From positions 1 to 64,000 of IMG/VR virus record IMGVR_UViG_3300037119_002976: a stretch of DNA of 64,000 nt; one strand, written 5' to 3'. The notes under the pieces are model-generated. The model saw nothing but the letters and a program-made list of their open reading frames with translations. It searched no databases and was not told the DNA's origin. This document shows positions 28,597 through 33,315 of this stretch, piece by piece. Each line of letters begins with the position of its first letter. Positions within the stretch are counted from its first letter, which is position 1. The DNA is from a virus (Duplodnaviria; Heunggongvirae; Uroviricota; Caudoviricetes). A program made the position numbers and the translations under genes.

Positions 28597-31500
28597 ATGG
28601 CAGCCGTCAAGGTCATCCGGTTTCTCCGCCGTCTCTTCGACGTCGATGACACGAACATCGGCGACCAGAAGTTCCTGCAGACCCGCCCGGCACTTCTCGG
28701 CGAGCCGGGCTTCCCTGGTGGCTGGATCCACGAGTACGTCGATCCTCCCGCTGGCGGTAGTGGGGCGGGCGCGACTGGGGCGACTGGCCCGCAGGGGCCG
28801 GATGGCATCGACGGCACGATCGGAGTCGACGGCATCACGGGCGCTACTGGTCCGACCGGTCCTCCTGGTGCGACGGGCGATGGCAATACGGGCGCGTCTG
28901 GATCAGACGGCGCGACAGGGGCAACGGGCTCTGTTGGAGGAACGGGCTCAACCGGTTCTGGATCTACAGGCGCCACGGGCGTCGGTGAGACGGGCGCGAC
29001 GGGCACGAGCGGGGCTACGGGTGCCACCGGTCCTCCTGGCATGGACGGCCTCGGTGGAGGCCCAGGGAGCTCAGGCGCGACTGGAGCCACCGGCTCGCAG
29101 GGAACGACCGGGCCAACAGGTGCTCAGGGAAACACGGGAACAACGGGAGCGACCGGTGCGACGGGTCCGCAAGGTCTGGACGGTCTGGACGGTCCGCCAG
29201 GACGTACAGGCGCCACGGGCAACACGGGATCCACTGGCCCGACCGGGGTAGGCAATACGGGCCCGACCGGGCCCCAGGGCGTTGATGGCCTCGAGGGTGG
29301 CCTGGGAGGCACAGGCCCGACTGGAGCGACGGGCGTCGGCAACACGGGGAGCTCTGGCCCGACCGGGAACACCGGTACGACCGGCGCGACAGGTCCCACT
29401 GGCCCGCAGGGACTCGACGGCCTGGAAGGGCCTCGGGGAGGCACGGGCATCACGGGTGCGACCGGAGTGGGCAATACGGGGAATACGGGAACCACTGGTG
29501 CGACAGGACCGCAAGGTCTGGAGGGCCAGGACGGCAACGACGGAGCCACGGGAGCGACCGGGCCGCCCGGAGCTGCGAGCAGCCAGGGCGCGACCGGAAA
29601 CACGGGCGCGACTGGAGCGACGGGCGCTGGTACCACCGGAGCGACAGGAGCCACCGGCCCGCAGGGACTCGATGGACTCGATGGAGGTCCCGGCCCGACA
29701 GGGATCACCGGCCCGACCGGTGTGCCCGGCGCGACCGGCAACACTGGCAATACGGGCACGACTGGCCCGACGGGCTCCACTGGTCCGCAAGGTCTCGATG
29801 GACTCGAGGGACCACGCGGCCTCACGGGCTTCACGGGAACGACGGGCGCCACCGGCAACACGGGCAATACGGGAGCCACCGGATCGACCGGCCCGCAGGG
29901 CAACGACGGGATCGACGGACTTCCTGGGACGACGGGATCGACCGGGGCAACCGGCAATCAGGGGAACACTGGCGCGACCGGTACGACCGGCGCGACGGGC
30001 CCGCAAGGTCTTGATGGCCTGGACGGAGGTCCTGGCCAGACCGGAACCACTGGCGCCACCGGCCCACAGGGGACAACGGGTCCGACGGGGACCCAGGGCA
30101 CGACCGGGAACACGGGCAACACGGGCGCGACAGGGCCAGCGGGCACTGACGGAATCGACGGCACCCAAGGATTCACTGGCCCGCAGGGCACCACCGGTCC
30201 GACGGGGACGCAGGGCACAACAGGCCCCACGGGTGCTCAGGGCTCCACCGGCAATACGGGCGCCACTGGGAACACTGGGGCTACGGGCTCGACTGGTCCA
30301 CAAGGTCTGGACGGGTTGGACGGTGGGCCTGGTGCGACAGGACCAACTGGGATCACGGGCGCCACGGGTACCCAGGGATCGACCGGCAACACCGGGAACA
30401 CCGGGACGACGGGGCCGACCGGAGCTACCGGACCGCAAGGACTGGACGGCCTCGAGGGACCGCGTGGTCTCACAGGCTTCACGGGTACGACGGGCGCCAC
30501 AGGATCGACCGGCCCCCAGGGCCTCGATGGGTTGGACGGTGGTCCAGGAGCGACCGGCAGTACCGGTCCGCAGGGATCGACTGGCAACACCGGAGCAACT
30601 GGGATCACCGGGGCGACCGGCGTCCAGGGAAACACCGGGGCGACGGGCAACACGGGGAACACAGGAACGACGGGAGCGACCGGGCCAGCTGGTCTCGACG
30701 GCCTGGACGGCGTTCAGGGATTCACCGGCCCGACCGGAATCACCGGCGCCACGGGTGCCCAGGGCTCGACGGGGAACACGGGCGCGACAGGCAACACAGG
30801 CGCGACCGGGGTCACTGGGCCGCAGGGCTTGGACGGACTCGAAGGCCCACGCGGATTCACCGGCCCGACAGGCATCACCGGAGCGACAGGCGTTCAGGGG
30901 ACAACGGGATCCACTGGCCCCGCGGGCAACGATGGAATCGACGGTCTCCCTGGAGCGGCCGGGACAACCGGCCCGACCGGAGCCGCAGGGAACACGGGCA
31001 ACACGGGCAACACGGGCAACACCGGAACCACCGGCCCGACAGGAACGCAGGGAACCACTGGACCCACTGGGCCGGCGGGGCTCGACGGTCTGGACGGAAC
31101 GAACGGAGCAACCGGGAGCACCGGGCCAGCGGGAGCAACCGGCAACACGGGCGCCACTGGAAACACGGGGGCCACCGGGAATACCGGGAACACAGGGCCA
31201 ACGGGCTCCACCGGCCCCGAGGGCACGCCCGGCCTCGATGGTGCTGCTGGCTCCACCGGCCCGACGGGGATCCAGGGGACGACCGGGTCAACTGGGCCCA
31301 CGGGGCCGACGGGCGACGCTGGGGCTGCCGGAGCCACCGGCTCAACCGGAGCGACCGGAGCCACGGGTGACACCGGATCCACAGGCACAACCGGCAGTAC
31401 GGGTTCGCCGGGCGGTGGCGTCACCATCGAGTATCTGTTCGACAACAGCACGACGAACGCCGATCCTGGCAGTGGGGATTTGCGTATCACCGACGCCGAC

Positions 31501-33315
31501 GTGTCGCTCGCGACCAGCCTGGCCGTTTCGGACACGGATCGCTTCTCTACGAATGTCAGCGACCTCTTGGAGTATTTGGGCTTTCTCGGCCAAGTACGCA
31601 TCCATAAGCGTCACGACCTCTCGGCCTGGGCTGTCTACGAGGTCGTCGAAGCCGCGGATGGAGGGGCTTGGCACGCCATTGACGTCACCCACATTGACTC
31701 ATCTGGGAGCGCGCCGTTTACCAACGGTGACCTCATCGTCCTTACGTTCACACGAAAGGGAGTGCCCGGCAGCGAGGGCGCTGCCGGAGCGACTGGAGCT
31801 ACTGGGTCGACCGGCAACACGGGCGCGACGGGTGCTACCGGCCCGCAGGGACTGGATGGTCTTGAGGGCGCGGTAGGGCGTACGGGCGCGACGGGCGCTC
31901 AGGGGGCAACGGGCAACACCGGCGCTACTGGAAACACTGGAAACACTGGCGCCACAGGTGCCACCGGGCCGCAAGGACTCGATGGGCTCGAGGGCGCCGT
32001 CGGTCGCACGGGCGCCACTGGGGTCGGGAACACGGGCGCGACGGGTCCCCAGGGACTCGATGGCCTCGATGGGGCTCCAGGGAAAGGCCCTGCTGTCACG
32101 ATCGGCGGGAACACGGCGGGTGCCGGCGCGCTGATCTCCACCGGCACGATGACGCTCGCGGGCGGCAACGGCATCACGCTCTCGCAGGCGGGCAACGTCA
32201 TCACGATCTCTGGTGGTGGCGGCGGCGGCAACTTCTCCGGCGGCGTCTCGAACCTCGGCAACACGGCTGGCTCGACCGGCATCACCGGAAGCCAGATGGT
32301 GCTGGTGGGTACCGGCGTCATGTCTCTCTCGCAGTCGACCGGCGCGAACGGGGGAACGATCTCCATCTCCGCTCCCGCGACGAGCTCGCTCTCTGCGACG
32401 GGGGCCGTCTCCATCTCGACCAACGTGAGCACGATCTCGATCGGCGCTCCCAACTCGAGCCTGATGTCGGGCACCGGACAGGTCTCGATCGAGACCAACG
32501 GCTCCACGATCTCGATCGGCGTCCCCAACGCGCTTCTCTCCTATCGCTGGATCGAGGACAGGCTGCTCATGGGTGCCACTCAGGGGATCGGCGCGAGTGC
32601 GGCTACGCAGACGACGGTGACGGCGTGGGTGATGCCGATGTCGTTCCCGAACGATCTCGCCTTCAACAACCTGCTCCTCGCGGCCCACAACTCGTTCTCG
32701 TCCGCGACGACCTCGATCTCGTCGGTCAACTACTCCTTCTCAATGGGCGCGTCGGTCGGCTTCTACACGCTGAACGACTCCACGATGTCGCTGGTCACGA
32801 GCTTCTCCAACTCGCTCGGCTACTCGAACGCGACCGCCGCGAACGTGACGAACATGAGCCTCACCGCTCGCGTCGGCTACGGCGGATCGTCCACCACGAA
32901 GTCGACGCAGGGCGGCGCGAACATGACGCAGATCATGTCCTCGATCAACTCCGTCCGGCAGATCCCGATGAACTGGACGACGATCTCGAACACGCTGACG
33001 CGCGGTCAGTATTTCGCGGTCGTTGCGTTCTCGGCGCTGACCGCTGGCGCGAACCAGGCATCGCTCTCGCAGGTCGGCTTCGTGTCCAACTTCTCCATCA
33101 TCGGCTCCGCGATCAACCCGCCCGAGTTGATGCAGAACACGGCGTCCGTCACGAGTCCGTATCCGTTCCTCGGGCAAGCCACGCTGGTCAACTCCTCCAA
33201 CTCGCTGATGCCGGTCAGCTTCAACACGTCGAAGATCACGACGGCGACGGCGATCGCGAACTCGACCAAGTTCCAGTCCATCTGGATGCGGATCTACTCT
33301 TCGCACTCGAACTAG
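28597..33315 (+). CDS. collagen-like fibre protein (1572 aa): about 880 aa of G-X-Thr/Pro triplets, an interrupting globular domain, and a Ser/Thr/Asn-rich beta C-terminal domain
   Basis: RBS GGAGG before ATG 28597. Uninterrupted Gly-every-third-residue repeats ([16 protein letters not shown]..., [13 protein letters not shown]...) run from residue ~50 to ~930 and again ~1040-1150. Strong DNA-level tandem repetition; C-terminus ends ...[11 protein letters not shown]. Confidence 0.85.

What the first reader, a model, noticed from the sequence alone, without database searches (positions are those of the whole stretch)
28597..33315. 1572 aa collagen-like G-X-Thr fibre, a probable acceptor for the phage glycosylation system (BclA-like arrangement)
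About 880 consecutive residues have Gly at every third position, with X-Y dominated by Thr, Ala, Pro and Asn ([29 protein letters not shown]). Predicted triple-helix length exceeds 250 nm. The repeats are interrupted once by a ~110 aa globular insert and end in a ~400 aa Ser/Thr/Asn-rich beta domain. Thr-rich GXT collagen repeats are the O-glycosylation sites of Bacillus BclA exosporium filaments, which carry methylated sugars. The matching enzyme set sits on both sides of this gene. The DNA is a near-perfect short-period tandem repeat, so it should expand and contract by recombination, and it generates mirror-image Pro/Val/Ala ORFs on the reverse strand.
Basis: partly seen in the sequence, partly recalled or inferred. 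Interest (0 to 1): 0.8.

Follow-up and report, generated by a model that had tools for sequence, protein, structure and literature searches.

The report
Giant collagen-like phage fibre, glycosylation cassette
A tailed phage encodes a 1572-residue fibre with about 285 nm of predicted collagen-like triple helix, and its tip belongs to a protein family that is nearly always encoded next to a sugar-adding enzyme and a methyltransferase, so the fibre is probably a sugar-coated host-attachment line.

Summary
The ORF (28597-33315, +, 1572 aa) is real. It has 324 Gly-X-Y triplets (Thr at Y in 59%), a 113-aa knob insert and a 408-aa Ser/Thr/Asn-rich beta C-terminus. Three other sequencing runs assembled the same sequence with 100% identity. 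One claim fails: the DNA is not a near-perfect tandem repeat. Copies are 60-80% identical and the longest exact repeat is 23 bp, as chance predicts.

It is a modular virion fibre of an unclassified high-GC siphophage. A lineage-conserved N-terminal anchor carries a collagen shaft, a widespread knob module and a distal beta-repeat plus beta-sandwich tip. The gene sits in a variable slot between the capsid genes and the head-tail adaptor. Relatives carry other fibres there.

The glycosylation idea is partly supported, but relocated. A GT-A glycosyltransferase (38257-38976) and a methyltransferase-like gene (39140-39772) follow the tip-domain family in 113 of 143 surveyed loci and in 7 of 7 reciprocal loci. 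Most of those tip-family proteins have no collagen. Relatives with collagen fibres but another tip lack this pair. Thr at Y is typical of bacterial collagens.

This is a new variant of a known kind. Glycosylation and the attachment site are untested.

The parts
28549..28579 (+). 13-bp GC-rich hairpin between the upstream structural gene g44 and the fibre gene. It may be a U-less terminator or attenuator that lowers fibre expression.
   Evidence: RNA fold of 28521-28600: -44.1 kcal/mol, z = -4.07, 0 of 200 shuffles fold as well. Its function is inferred.
28597..33315 (+). Fibre gene, 1572 aa, about 145 kDa unmodified.
   Evidence: ORF; SD GGAGG at 28587-28591; Pfam Collagen E 1.6e-119; mass; identical in three other assemblies.
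28597..28767 (+). N-terminal anchor, aa 1-57, not collagen and with no signal peptide. It is conserved at the start of the differently built fibres encoded in the same slot of related phages. Presumed virion-attachment domain.
   Evidence: tblastn gives 45% identity over 56 aa to the L003 fibre start. Alignment A4 with the L003, L100, L097 and L094 fibres. No PDB relative. Attachment is inferred.
28768..31419 (+). Collagen-like shaft 1, aa 58-941, about 253 nm if triple-helical. About 16 of the protein's 19 super-repeats of 26-57 aa lie here, each starting GP(Q/A)G(L/N)DG(L/I)(D/E)G and followed by (G-X-Thr)n. There are 8 short register breaks, all before residue 348.
   Evidence: Triple-helix formation is inferred from sequence.
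31420..31758 (+). Knob insert, aa 942-1054. It is a single copy of a widespread module of about 120 aa found in collagen-like fibre proteins. It is not in Pfam.
   Evidence: The word-index search found nothing. The full HMMER search found 2458 relatives (446 at E<=1e-10), usually with 2-8 matched stretches each. Of the top 150, 125 contain G-X-Y runs.
31759..32088 (+). Collagen-like shaft 2, aa 1055-1164, about 31 nm.
   Evidence: This is the best Pfam Collagen stretch (aa 1054-1110).
32089..32601 (+). Gly/Ser/Thr/Asn-rich beta-hairpin repeats, about aa 1165-1335, of the type '...GNTAG...GT.TLAGGN.ITLSQ.GN.ITIS..'. This is the first part of the tip family ('colC').
   Evidence: Homologues consist of many such repeats. 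The AF2 model shows paired strands but with low confidence.
32602..33312 (+). C-terminal beta-sandwich tip domain, about aa 1336-1572. Presumed trimerisation and host-glycan-binding end. It has 15 N-x-S/T sequons and many Ser/Thr.
33326..35020 (+). Next gene: a 564-aa protein with two matched stretches of the polysaccharide lyase family. It may be a virion-associated or secreted depolymerase.
   Evidence: Pfam PF14099 E 1.1e-37, two stretches. Its role is inferred.
38257..38976 (+). g54, a GT-A-fold glycosyltransferase that is a conserved partner of the tip-domain family.
   Evidence: phrog_12406 E 1e-6. Profile hit to PDB 2c0n (STIV A197) E 7.9e-5. AF2 pLDDT 81. Foldseek: A197 E 3.5e-11, then LH3 and COLGALT1 collagen glycosyltransferases, SpsA and ppGalNAc-Ts. 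Neighbourhood statistics.
39140..39772 (+). g56, a probable SAM-dependent methyltransferase and the second conserved partner.
   Evidence: phrog_6636 E 5e-4. Motifs LD(I/L)ACGxxK and VEHIPH are conserved. It lies downstream of g54 on the same strand in 134 of 143 loci. No PDB or Pfam hit.
8861..9781 (+). g18, a glycosyltransferase-like gene just after the terminase. It is conserved in the relatives L003, L005/L006 and L007, whose fetched DNA covers that position.
   Evidence: phrog_14945 E 2.4e-11; synteny.
12725..18859 (+). Upstream sugar-modification cluster: a PIG-L-type deacetylase, methyltransferase-like genes and GT2 genes. It lies in the 9.9-kb stretch between g18 (8861-9781) and the portal gene (19697), which is only about 1.4 kb in relative L003.
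   Evidence: Pfam; comparison with L003.
23107..23760 (+). g39, a GT-like gene between the MuF/protease-like gene and the major capsid gene. It is conserved in every relative whose fetched DNA covers that position.
   Evidence: phrog_854 E 7e-19. A QDD motif is visible in the translation. Synteny.
25092..28523 (+). Major capsid protein (25092-26903), g43 (27002-27658, phrog_792, with a Ser-rich C-terminal tail) and g44 (27684-28523, phrog_779). This trio forms the conserved left border of the fibre slot.
42208..44983 (+). Downstream methyltransferase, GT4 glycosyltransferase and methyltransferase trio.
   Evidence: Pfam and PHROGs. The nearest phage relatives of the GT4 gene are cyanophage genes.
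45004..46083 (+). Head-tail adaptor, the conserved right border of the fibre slot.
   Evidence: phrog_783 E 4.8e-45; synteny.
47775..51989 (+). Tape measure protein, 1404 aa. At about 0.15 nm per residue it implies a tail of roughly 210 nm, shorter than the fibre shaft.
   Evidence: PHROG tape-measure families, E to 2.9e-68. The length rule comes from established knowledge.

Best explanation
The gene encodes a homotrimeric virion fibre built from exchangeable modules.

- **Anchor (aa 1-57).** It is shared with the otherwise different fibres of related phages. It fixes the fibre to the particle, most likely at the head-tail junction, because the gene occupies a variable slot between the capsid genes and the head-tail adaptor.
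- **Shaft.** About 285 nm of collagen-like triple helix. Blocks of G-X-Thr are punctuated every 26-57 residues by acidic GLDGL(D/E)G segments, and one knob module interrupts the helix.
- **Tip.** Beta-hairpin repeats plus a beta-sandwich domain. The tip probably starts trimer folding and binds a host surface glycan.

The shaft is longer than the roughly 210-nm tail, so the tip could touch the cell first and hold the phage while the neighbouring polysaccharide lyase and the tail tip act.

The tip belongs to a family that travels as a three-gene cassette with a GT-A glycosyltransferase and a methyltransferase-like gene, both present here. The most likely reading is that these two enzymes put (methylated) sugars on the Ser/Thr-rich tip of the fibre in the cytoplasm before assembly.

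Shown: the anatomy, the homologies, the gene-neighbourhood statistics and the GT-A fold. Inferred: trimer and triple-helix formation, the attachment site, glycan binding and actual glycosylation.
For: - Anatomy.
- The start is supported by an SD sequence, and the sequence was reproduced in three other runs.
- Phage structural context: terminase, portal, capsid, adaptor, tape measure.
- Relatives found through the capsid protein (L003, L005) and through g54 or the tip domain (L100, L094, L097, L161, L162) share the capsid-to-adaptor gene set. In L003, L094, L097 and L100 a long fibre gene with a homologous N-terminus follows g43. Shafts differ (collagen or beta-repeats) and so do tips.
- The knob module is common in long collagen-like fibre proteins; two of the three read in full (P0314, P0242) end in a C-terminus that looks like a phage tail-fibre chaperone domain, by my reading of the sequence, not by a family search.
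- The tip model is a beta-sandwich resembling phage capsid or tail surface proteins and carbohydrate-binding modules.
- g54 has a GT-A fold.
- Among 143 loci found through g54, 134 have g56 downstream. A tip-family ORF lies upstream on the same strand in 113 of them, and in 95 of the 116 with at least 4 kb of upstream DNA. The median gap is 75 bp.
- Reciprocally, 7 of 7 loci found through the tip domain carry g54 and g56.
- In L100 the called fibre ORF (6558-9995) and the g54-homologue ORF (9992-10720) overlap by 4 bp.
Against: - No experiment shows that the protein is in the virion, forms a triple helix or carries sugar.
- In the window, g54 and g56 lie 5 kb from the fibre gene, with four other genes between them.
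- The tip model is only moderately confident (mean pLDDT 60.6), so fold matches are soft.
- g56 is called a methyltransferase on weak scores and motifs only.
- The attachment site is ambiguous. In one SU10-like podovirus the tip-family gene lies between portal and capsid genes (L001). In another it lies after the adaptors (L163).
- In Patescibacteria genomes the cassette sits in a conserved cellular context rather than a prophage. The family is therefore not exclusively a phage fibre.
- The enzymes could instead act on other virion proteins or on host polysaccharide.
Confidence: 0.6

Rival explanations
1. First reader's model. The G-X-Thr collagen shaft itself is the main O-glycosylation acceptor, as in BclA, and is served by the phage's large transferase and methyltransferase set. 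The sugars would stabilise the hydroxyproline-free triple helix.
For: - Thr occupies the Y position in 59% of 324 triplets.
- BclA and C. difficile BclA1 are glycosylated collagen-like proteins (PMC8968730).
- At least ten sugar-modification genes flank the gene.
- Relative L005 combines two G-X-Thr collagen fibres with three GT2 genes and a sugar epimerase.
- After the viral enzyme A197, the closest solved structures to g54 include the human collagen glycosyltransferases LH3 and COLGALT1.
Against: - Thr at Y is the commonest residue in bacterial collagen-like proteins generally (48% in Gram-positives), and most are not known to be glycosylated.
- The only transferase tied to this protein by conserved neighbourhood (g54) accompanies tip-family proteins that lack collagen in over 100 loci. 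It gave no match in the fetched DNA of L003 and L005, which have collagen fibres.
- The fold hits to LH3 and COLGALT1 are generic GT-A similarity at 8-12% identity.
- The terminal domains are not BclA-like.
Confidence: 0.25
2. The fibre is not glycosylated. The transferases modify the major capsid and tail-tube proteins, as in mycobacteriophages of clusters F, O and C. Alternatively they remodel host surface polysaccharide. In this reading g54 and g56 sit near the fibre gene only because both are cargo of the same variable slot.
For: - Phage-encoded transferases are reported to modify capsid and tail-tube subunits (PMC11600133 citing Freeman et al. 2023).
- Two GT-like genes, g18 and g39, are conserved across the relatives that cover them regardless of fibre type, and they sit next to the terminase and capsid genes.
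- g43 (phrog_792, 'major tail protein') ends in a Ser-rich tail.
- In the window four genes separate the fibre gene from g54.
Against: This does not explain why g54 and g56 follow the tip-family gene in unrelated phage types (a siphophage lineage, SU10-like podoviruses, podovirus ctKR88) and in Patescibacteria chromosomes. The median gap is 75 bp, the called ORFs overlap in L100, and 7 of 7 reciprocal loci carry the pair.
Confidence: 0.25
3. The protein is not a virion part. It is a secreted or cell-surface collagen-like adhesin expressed from the phage as a lysogenic-conversion factor, like streptococcal Scl proteins or prophage collagen-like proteins.
For: - Tip-family cassettes lie in conserved cellular contexts in Patescibacteria genomes.
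- The window holds another small collagen-like ORF that does have a signal peptide.
Against: - There is no signal peptide or membrane segment at the N-terminus (sequence).
- The gene lies on the late-gene strand between the capsid genes and the adaptor.
- Its N-terminal segment is conserved among fibres in the same slot of related phages.
Confidence: 0.05
4. The ORF is an assembly or annotation artefact of a repetitive region.
For: Two of the three independent contigs with DNA (L157, L158) end inside the gene, shortly after the collagen-coding DNA, and the third (L159) ends inside that DNA.
Against: - Three independent runs give 100% identity over as much as 3.3 kb of the collagen-coding DNA.
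- The DNA is not highly repetitive.
- The N-terminus, the knob and the C-terminus each have homologues.
Confidence: 0.02

Closest known systems
Collagen-like phage tail-fibre and spike proteins (E. coli prophage collagen-like proteins, PMC3368898; metagenomic proteins P0314 and P0242 found here)
   Same: Trimeric fibre logic: G-X-Y shafts alternate with globular modules and end in a distal domain. The same knob module of about 120 aa is present. Some relatives have 240-276 triplets.
   Different: This protein has more triplets (324) and a far longer uninterrupted run (198, against at most 87 among the top 150 relatives). It has a different anchor. Its tip is of the colC type rather than an S74 chaperone or the usual tail-fibre ends. 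The gene lies before the head-tail adaptor, not after the tape measure.
BclA exosporium glycoprotein of Bacillus (and C. difficile BclA1-3)
   Same: N-domain, Thr-rich collagen region and C-domain layout. Glycosylation genes are nearby. A hair-like surface filament is expected.
   Different: No BclA-type N-terminal targeting sequence. The X position is mostly Ala rather than Pro. The C-terminal domain shows no leading C1q/TNF-like match. The conserved enzyme link is to the beta tip, not to the collagen. The setting is a phage, not a spore.
Mycobacteriophage virion glycosylation (Che8, Corndog, Myrna; Freeman et al. 2023, as cited in PMC11600133)
   Same: A high-GC siphophage with several transferases and O-methyltransferase-type genes embedded in or next to the structural genes.
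   Different: The reported acceptors there are capsid and tail-tube subunits. Here one transferase-methyltransferase pair is tied to a fibre tip domain. The GT4 gene's nearest phage relatives are cyanophage genes, not mycobacteriophage genes. There is no nucleotide similarity to any deposited phage.
SPP1 gp12 (collagen-like capsid binder) and phi29 gp8.5 head fibres
   Same: Trimeric accessory fibres encoded among head genes. They are thought to help host adhesion (PMC7602432).
   Different: From my own knowledge, not checked here: gp12 is a tiny protein with a few collagen repeats, and gp8.5 is a coiled coil. Neither has a long shaft, a knob, a beta tip or linked transferases. Capsid attachment of the present fibre is unproven.
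STIV A197 (viral GT-A glycosyltransferase, PDB 2c0n)
   Same: It is the closest solved structure to g54 by profile (E 7.9e-5) and by fold (E 3.5e-11, TM 0.71 on the target). It is a small, soluble, virus-encoded GT-A enzyme.
   Different: Identity is 20%. It comes from an archaeal virus. As far as I recall, its acceptor is not established either.

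Membership tests
Collagen triple-helix repeat proteins (Pfam PF01391; bacterial collagen-like proteins) | Long uninterrupted Gly-X-Y repeats | tested here: met
   324 triplets, with a longest run of 198. PF01391 E 1.6e-119, 8 stretches.
Collagen triple-helix repeat proteins (Pfam PF01391; bacterial collagen-like proteins) | Non-collagen flanking domain able to trimerise and nucleate the helix | tested here: inconclusive
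   A C-terminal beta domain is present and modelled as a monomer only. No multimer prediction was available.
Collagen triple-helix repeat proteins (Pfam PF01391; bacterial collagen-like proteins) | Actual triple-helix formation (CD maximum near 220 nm, cooperative melting, trypsin resistance) | not testable with these tools
   This needs recombinant protein.
BclA-like exosporium collagen glycoproteins | N-terminal exosporium-targeting domain | tested here: not met
   The N-terminus aligns with fibre N-termini of related phages. No BclA-like motif is visible; the comparison of the motif rests on my recollection of BclA.
BclA-like exosporium collagen glycoproteins | GPT-dominated collagen region carrying O-linked oligosaccharides on Thr | tested here: inconclusive
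   Y is Thr in 59% of triplets, but X is Pro in only 18%. Glycosylation cannot be tested. Thr at Y is generic for bacterial collagens.
BclA-like exosporium collagen glycoproteins | C-terminal C1q/TNF-like jelly-roll trimer | tested here: not met
Tip-domain ('colC') + GT-A + methyltransferase cassette (uncharacterised; defined here) | Gly/Ser/Thr/Asn-rich beta-hairpin repeats followed by a conserved C-terminal domain of about 240-280 aa | tested here: met
   263 homologues, the closest at 58-82% identity over 63-100% of the query (P0001-P0007).
Tip-domain ('colC') + GT-A + methyltransferase cassette (uncharacterised; defined here) | g54-type GT-A gene and g56-type methyltransferase gene downstream on the same strand | tested here: met
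   Both are present at 38257-38976 and 39140-39772. The pattern holds in 113 of 143 loci and in 7 of 7 reciprocal loci. In the window the spacing is unusually large (4.9 kb).
Tip-domain ('colC') + GT-A + methyltransferase cassette (uncharacterised; defined here) | The tip protein is the substrate of the two enzymes | not testable with these tools
   Inferred from neighbourhood only.
Phage virion glycosylation systems of the mycobacteriophage type | Phage-encoded transferases within or next to virion structural genes | tested here: met
   g18, g39, g54, the 12.7-18.9 kb cluster and the 42.2-45.0 kb trio.
Phage virion glycosylation systems of the mycobacteriophage type | Homology of the transferases to those of Che8, Corndog or Myrna | tested here: not met
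   tblastn hits for the GT4 gene are cyanophages. Hits for g54 are only three copies of one uncultured podovirus genome, ctKR88. The other transferases were not tested.
Phage virion glycosylation systems of the mycobacteriophage type | Glycans on capsid and tail-tube subunits | not testable with these tools
   The capsid protein has no Ser/Thr-rich tail. g43 has a Ser-rich C-terminus.
Phage tail fibres with a C-terminal intramolecular chaperone (Peptidase S74) | S74 auto-cleaving chaperone domain at the C-terminus | tested here: not met
   No Pfam hit other than Collagen. The C-terminus belongs to the colC family. Knob-bearing relatives P0314 and P0242 do end in such a domain, judged by reading their sequences.

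The most novel reading that the evidence does not exclude
The tip domain, GT-A transferase and methyltransferase would form a self-contained 'glyco-adhesin' cassette that moves between Patescibacteria (CPR) chromosomes and unrelated phages. In CPR chromosomes it sits in a conserved cellular cluster. In the window it has been grafted onto a collagen shaft of about 285 nm. On this reading the phage and epibiotic CPR bacteria use the same glycosylated surface module to hold on to cell surfaces. Alternatively, this high-GC phage lineage belongs to the little-known phages of CPR bacteria. It would also be the first case of a phage fibre carrying its own dedicated glycosylation and methylation enzymes.
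Probability: 0.12. Interest if true: 0.8.

Novelty: new variant of a known kind. Interest (0 to 1): 0.55.

Why it matters
If the fibre is on the virion and is glycosylated, three things follow.
- It would extend phage virion glycosylation, so far reported for capsid and tail-tube proteins of mycobacteriophages, to a host-recognition fibre with its own dedicated enzyme pair.
- It would name a function for a large unannotated family: 4642 g54 relatives and hundreds of tip-domain proteins, none with a Pfam domain.
- It would give a natural hydroxyproline-free collagen helix of about 285 nm, encoded by DNA that is not repetitive. That is attractive for recombinant collagen design.

The occurrence of the same cassette in Patescibacteria chromosomes also gives a handle on surface glycoproteins of these uncultured bacteria.

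Tried and rejected
- **Close phage relatives.** Megablast of 24-38 kb against 50,697 phage records found nothing.
- **Collagen part against phages.** tblastn found nothing, probably because of low-complexity masking, so it is uninformative.
- **Exact look-up of the 1572-aa protein.** It is not on record.
- **Capsid protein against one genome per species.** No prophage relative was found, so there is no host assignment.
- **Knob insert.** The word-index search found nothing, which was misleading: the full HMMER search found 2458 relatives. PDB sequence searches for the knob, the tip profile, the anchor profile and the g56 profile gave nothing meaningful.
- **Family scans.** NCBIfam found nothing for the fibre tip, the lyase or g51-g56. 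PHROGs found nothing for the tip or for the neighbours of the Patescibacteria cassette, apart from one weak baseplate hit.
- **Primary paper.** The paper on mycobacteriophage virion glycosylation (PMC10527164) is not held. It is cited only through PMC11600133.
- **Rejected: rapidly expanding tandem repeat**.
- **Rejected: Thr-richness as evidence of glycosylation**.
- **Rejected: the Patescibacteria loci are prophages of the SU10 type.** No portal or capsid homologues were found, and the cellular neighbours are conserved.
- **Not attempted:** homotrimer structure prediction, because no tool offers it.

Full report

Yes, with one exception. The ORF 28597..33315 (+) encodes 1572 aa. A GGAGG Shine-Dalgarno sequence lies 5 nt upstream of the ATG.

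A script counted 324 G-X-Y triplets in ten runs.
- Residues 58-941 are collagen-like, with eight short register breaks, all before residue 348. Most are of the G-V-G-N-T-G type.
- Residues 348-941 form a perfect run of 198 triplets.
- Residues 942-1054 are a 113-aa non-collagen insert.
- Residues 1055-1164 are collagen again.
- Residues 1165-1572 are a Ser/Thr/Asn-rich tail.

Thr occupies the Y position in 191 of 324 triplets. The X position is Ala, Pro, Asn or Leu in most. Pfam Collagen matches with E 1.6e-119. At 0.286 nm per residue the two helices would measure 253 + 31 nm.

The protein has a higher-order pattern. About 19 super-repeats of 26-57 residues each open with GP(Q/A)G(L/N)DG(L/I)(D/E)G and continue as (G-X-Thr)n. 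The reverse-strand Pro/Val/Ala ORFs exist and are by-products of the coding strand.

The sequence is not an assembly artefact. Contigs from three other sequencing runs are 100% identical over as much as 27203-31925, with no gaps.

**2. What fails in the observation**

The DNA is not a near-perfect tandem repeat.
- Tandem Repeats Finder reports only short arrays with 62-88% matches, apart from one perfect 32-bp run.
- Direct-repeat copies are 60-80% identical.
- The longest exact repeat in 3.3 kb of collagen-coding DNA is 23 bp. That lies within the range obtained when the same protein is back-translated with random synonymous codons.
- Third-position GC falls to 0.70 in the collagen part, against 0.84 in reference genes and 0.92 in the C-terminal part. 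Synonymous codons are therefore used more evenly there.

Together with the identical independent assemblies, this argues against rapid expansion and contraction by recombination.

**3. Genomic setting**

The window is part of a high-GC (about 64%) siphophage with no close nucleotide relative among 50,697 phage records. Its major capsid protein is 28-35% identical to those of Arthrobacter, Gordonia, Microbacterium and Streptomyces phages. The same g54 protein is on record on a contig of about 101 kb.

| Coordinates | Gene | Evidence |
|---|---|---|
| 7111-8898 | terminase | |
| 8861-9781 | GT-like g18 | |
| 12.7-18.9 kb | cluster: PIG-L deacetylase, methyltransferases, GT2 genes | |
| 19697 | portal | |
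| 21573 | MuF/protease-like gene | |
| 23107 | GT-like g39 | |
| 25092 | major capsid protein | |
| 27002 | g43 (phrog_792) | |
| 27684 | g44 (phrog_779) | |
| 28597-33315 | the fibre gene | |
| 33326 | polysaccharide lyase family protein (two matched stretches) | |
| 35027-38260 | three genes of unknown function | |
| 38257 | g54 | |
| 39140 | g56 | |
| 40863 | homing-endonuclease-like gene | |
| 42.2-45.0 kb | methyltransferase, GT4, methyltransferase | |
| 45004 | head-tail adaptor | |
| 47775-51989 | tape measure protein, 1404 aa | |

**4. The fibre slot and the anchor**

Relatives were found in two ways: through the capsid protein (L003-L007), and through g54 or the tip domain (L100, L094, L097, L161, L162). 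They share the portal-to-adaptor gene set.
- In L003, L094, L097 and L100 a long fibre gene with a homologous N-terminus follows g43, directly or after one or two small genes. L005 carries two collagen-like genes in the slot, whose N-termini do not match. L162 carries tip-family ORFs there, and L161 starts at the end of its fibre gene. The N-termini of those two were not compared.
- L003 has a G-X-Thr collagen protein of at least 1163 aa (277 triplets) with a different internal insert and a different C-terminal domain.
- L005 has two collagen-like genes. The longer one ends like L003.
- L100, L097 and L094 have fibres of 1038-2220 aa made of beta-repeats with no collagen.

The first 45 residues or so are nevertheless homologous across the L003, L100, L097 and L094 fibres: 45% identity to L003 by tblastn, and alignment A4.

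So the window protein is a mosaic of three parts: a lineage-specific anchor, a collagen shaft like that of L003 and L005, and a tip like that of L100. Variable shafts and tips on a constant anchor are the usual signature of host-recognition fibres.

**5. The knob insert**

The word-index search found no relative. The exhaustive HMMER search found 2458 (446 at E<=1e-10), typically with 2-8 matched stretches per protein.
- Of the best 150, 125 carry G-X-Y runs and 13 have at least 100 triplets, the maximum being 276.
- Two of the three read in full (P0314, P0242) end in what looks like the intramolecular chaperone domain typical of phage tail fibres, judged by reading the sequence rather than by a family search.

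The insert is therefore one copy of a widespread, un-named module of collagen-like fibre proteins. Long collagen fibres of this build are an existing class, though an uncharacterised one. The present protein sits at the top of that class in triplet number and far exceeds it in uninterrupted run length.

**6. The tip and its enzyme partners**

The last 413 aa have 263 homologues, none with a Pfam domain. These homologues consist of many Gly/Ser/Thr/Asn-rich repeats plus a conserved C-terminal domain. None of those read in full contains collagen. The only exception in the list is the fragment P0004, which starts with eight triplets.

The decisive observation is gene neighbourhood.
- In an SU10-like phage contig (L001), the two genes after the tip-family gene are homologues of window g54 and g56.
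- In a 1.2-Mb contig (L008, GC 52%) that carries a homologue of proteins named Saccharibacteria, the same two homologues lie a little further downstream, after two other genes.
- In the complete podovirus genome ctKR88, a methyltransferase-domain gene and then the g54 and g56 homologues follow the tip-family gene.

A survey seeded with g54 returned 80 genome loci, mostly labelled Patescibacteria-group lineages such as Saccharibacteria, Paceibacterota and Parcubacteria. It also returned 63 viral contigs.
- g56 lies downstream on the same strand in 134 of the 143 loci.
- An HMM of the tip family finds an upstream same-strand member in 113 of 143, and in 95 of the 116 with at least 4 kb of upstream DNA.
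- The median gap to g54 is 75 bp, and 106 of the 143 loci include the full C-terminal domain.

Four further loci chosen from the tip-domain side all carry both enzymes, which makes 7 of 7 reciprocal loci.

g54 is a GT-A glycosyltransferase.
- PHROG glycosyltransferase, E 1e-6.
- Profile hit to STIV A197, E 7.9e-5.
- AlphaFold pLDDT 81.
- Foldseek: A197 E 3.5e-11, then the LH3 and COLGALT1 collagen glycosyltransferases, SpsA and polypeptide GalNAc-transferases.

g56 has class-I methyltransferase motifs and a weak PHROG hit.

**7. What this means for the glycosylation idea**

The link between this protein and glycosylation is real at the level of conserved neighbourhood. It attaches to the beta tip, not to the collagen. 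Tip-family proteins without collagen keep the enzyme pair. The collagen fibres of L003 and L005, which have another tip, have no g54 or g56 in the fetched DNA, although the L003 contig ends inside its fibre gene.

L005 does carry three GT2 genes and a sugar epimerase. Two GT-like genes (g18 and g39) are conserved in the relatives that cover them. Virion glycosylation of some kind therefore looks like a trait of the whole lineage, and glycosylation of the G-X-Thr shaft by other enzymes cannot be excluded.

Thr at Y is not in itself evidence. It is the commonest Y residue in bacterial collagen-like proteins, and most of those are not known to be glycosylated (PMC8968730). In the mycobacteriophages studied, the acceptors are capsid and tail-tube proteins (PMC11600133). 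Those remain candidate acceptors here.

**8. Most likely mechanism**

Shown: the anatomy and the associations. Inferred: everything below.

Three chains associate through the C-terminal domain and zip into a triple helix of about 285 nm. The anchor fixes the trimer near the head-tail junction. The tape measure implies a tail of about 210 nm, so the tip can reach beyond the tail tip. It would make the first, reversible contact with a surface polysaccharide. The lyase encoded next door and the tail tip would act afterwards. g54 and g56 would decorate the Ser/Thr-rich tip with (methylated) sugars before assembly.

The attachment site is uncertain. The gene lies before the adaptor here, between portal and capsid genes in L001, and after the adaptors in L163.

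**9. Comparison with known systems, and verdict**

The protein works like known collagen-containing phage fibres. It is a member of the collagen-repeat superfamily by sequence. It is not BclA-like in its terminal domains, and its transferases are not close to the mycobacteriophage ones tested.

What is new:
- the scale of the helix;
- the non-repetitive coding of that helix;
- the mosaic with a tip family that carries its own transferase and methyltransferase;
- the presence of that cassette in a conserved cellular context in Patescibacteria genomes.

I rate it a new variant of a known kind, of moderate interest. The central functional claims still await virion proteomics and glycopeptide mapping.

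Noticed in passing
window 3560-4129 (+): A second, small collagen-like ORF of a different flavour. It has an N-terminal signal-peptide or membrane segment ([25 protein letters not shown]), then 32 Pro/Lys-rich triplets ([13 protein letters not shown]...), then a short Lys-rich, possibly coiled-coil stretch and a Cys/Pro-rich end. It looks secreted or membrane-anchored, unlike the fibre.
   Followed up: partly
window 28549-28579 (+): A strong 13-bp GC hairpin with no U tract lies between g44 and the fibre gene (-44 kcal/mol for the 80-nt context, z = -4.07). It may be an attenuator that sets the fibre-to-capsid expression ratio.
   Followed up: partly
L008, L160 and 80 genome loci L010-L089: The cassette of tip domain, GT-A and methyltransferase is common in Patescibacteria genomes. 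There it is flanked by a conserved set of paralogous genes of 311-353 aa with unknown function, found in 17-36 of the 80 genome loci and in 0-4 of the 63 viral loci. In L008 and L160 the cluster lies between polA and a P-type ATPase gene. It may be an uncharacterised cell-surface glycoprotein system.
   Followed up: partly
window 38257-38976 (g54 family): 4642 database proteins match g54 at E<1e-5, and none of the 120 best listed carries a Pfam domain or an informative name. This is a large unannotated GT-A family whose nearest solved structure is STIV A197.
   Followed up: partly
window 31420-31758 (knob family): A fibre module of about 120 aa with 2458 relatives is not matched by any Pfam family in a scan of the whole 1572-aa protein. 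The word-index protein search missed it entirely, while the exhaustive HMMER search found it. This is a caution for 'orphan' calls.
   Followed up: yes
window 23107-23760 and 25092-25630: A GT-A-like gene (g39, phrog_854) sits just upstream of the capsid gene, where I would expect a scaffold gene, and it is conserved in every relative whose fetched DNA covers that position. The capsid protein itself carries an acidic, scaffold-like N-terminal extension of about 180 aa.
   Followed up: partly
window 33326-35020: A 564-aa protein with a short N-terminal domain and two matched stretches of the polysaccharide lyase family (PF14099) lies directly after the fibre gene. It is a candidate capsule or EPS depolymerase.
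   Followed up: no
window 40863-41354: A homing-endonuclease-like gene (weak LAGLIDADG hit, PHROG 'HNH endonuclease' E 1.4e-15) is inserted in the variable region between the fibre cassette and the second transferase trio.
   Followed up: no
window 28768-32088: Third-position GC drops to 0.70 in the collagen-coding DNA, against 0.84-0.92 elsewhere, with more even use of Gly, Thr and Pro codons. This is consistent with selection against DNA repetitiveness or with tRNA balancing for a protein that is 35% Gly and 23% Thr.
   Followed up: partly
window 10828-11799: An SPFH/Band-7 family protein (Pfam E 1.9e-22; PHROG 'lipoprotein') is encoded between the terminase region and the glycosylation cluster. 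This is unusual cargo for a phage structural arm.
   Followed up: no
L094 1407-8066: A related phage carries a 2220-aa all-beta-repeat fibre with the same anchor in the same slot. Very long fibres are therefore a trait of the lineage, whatever the shaft chemistry.
   Followed up: partly
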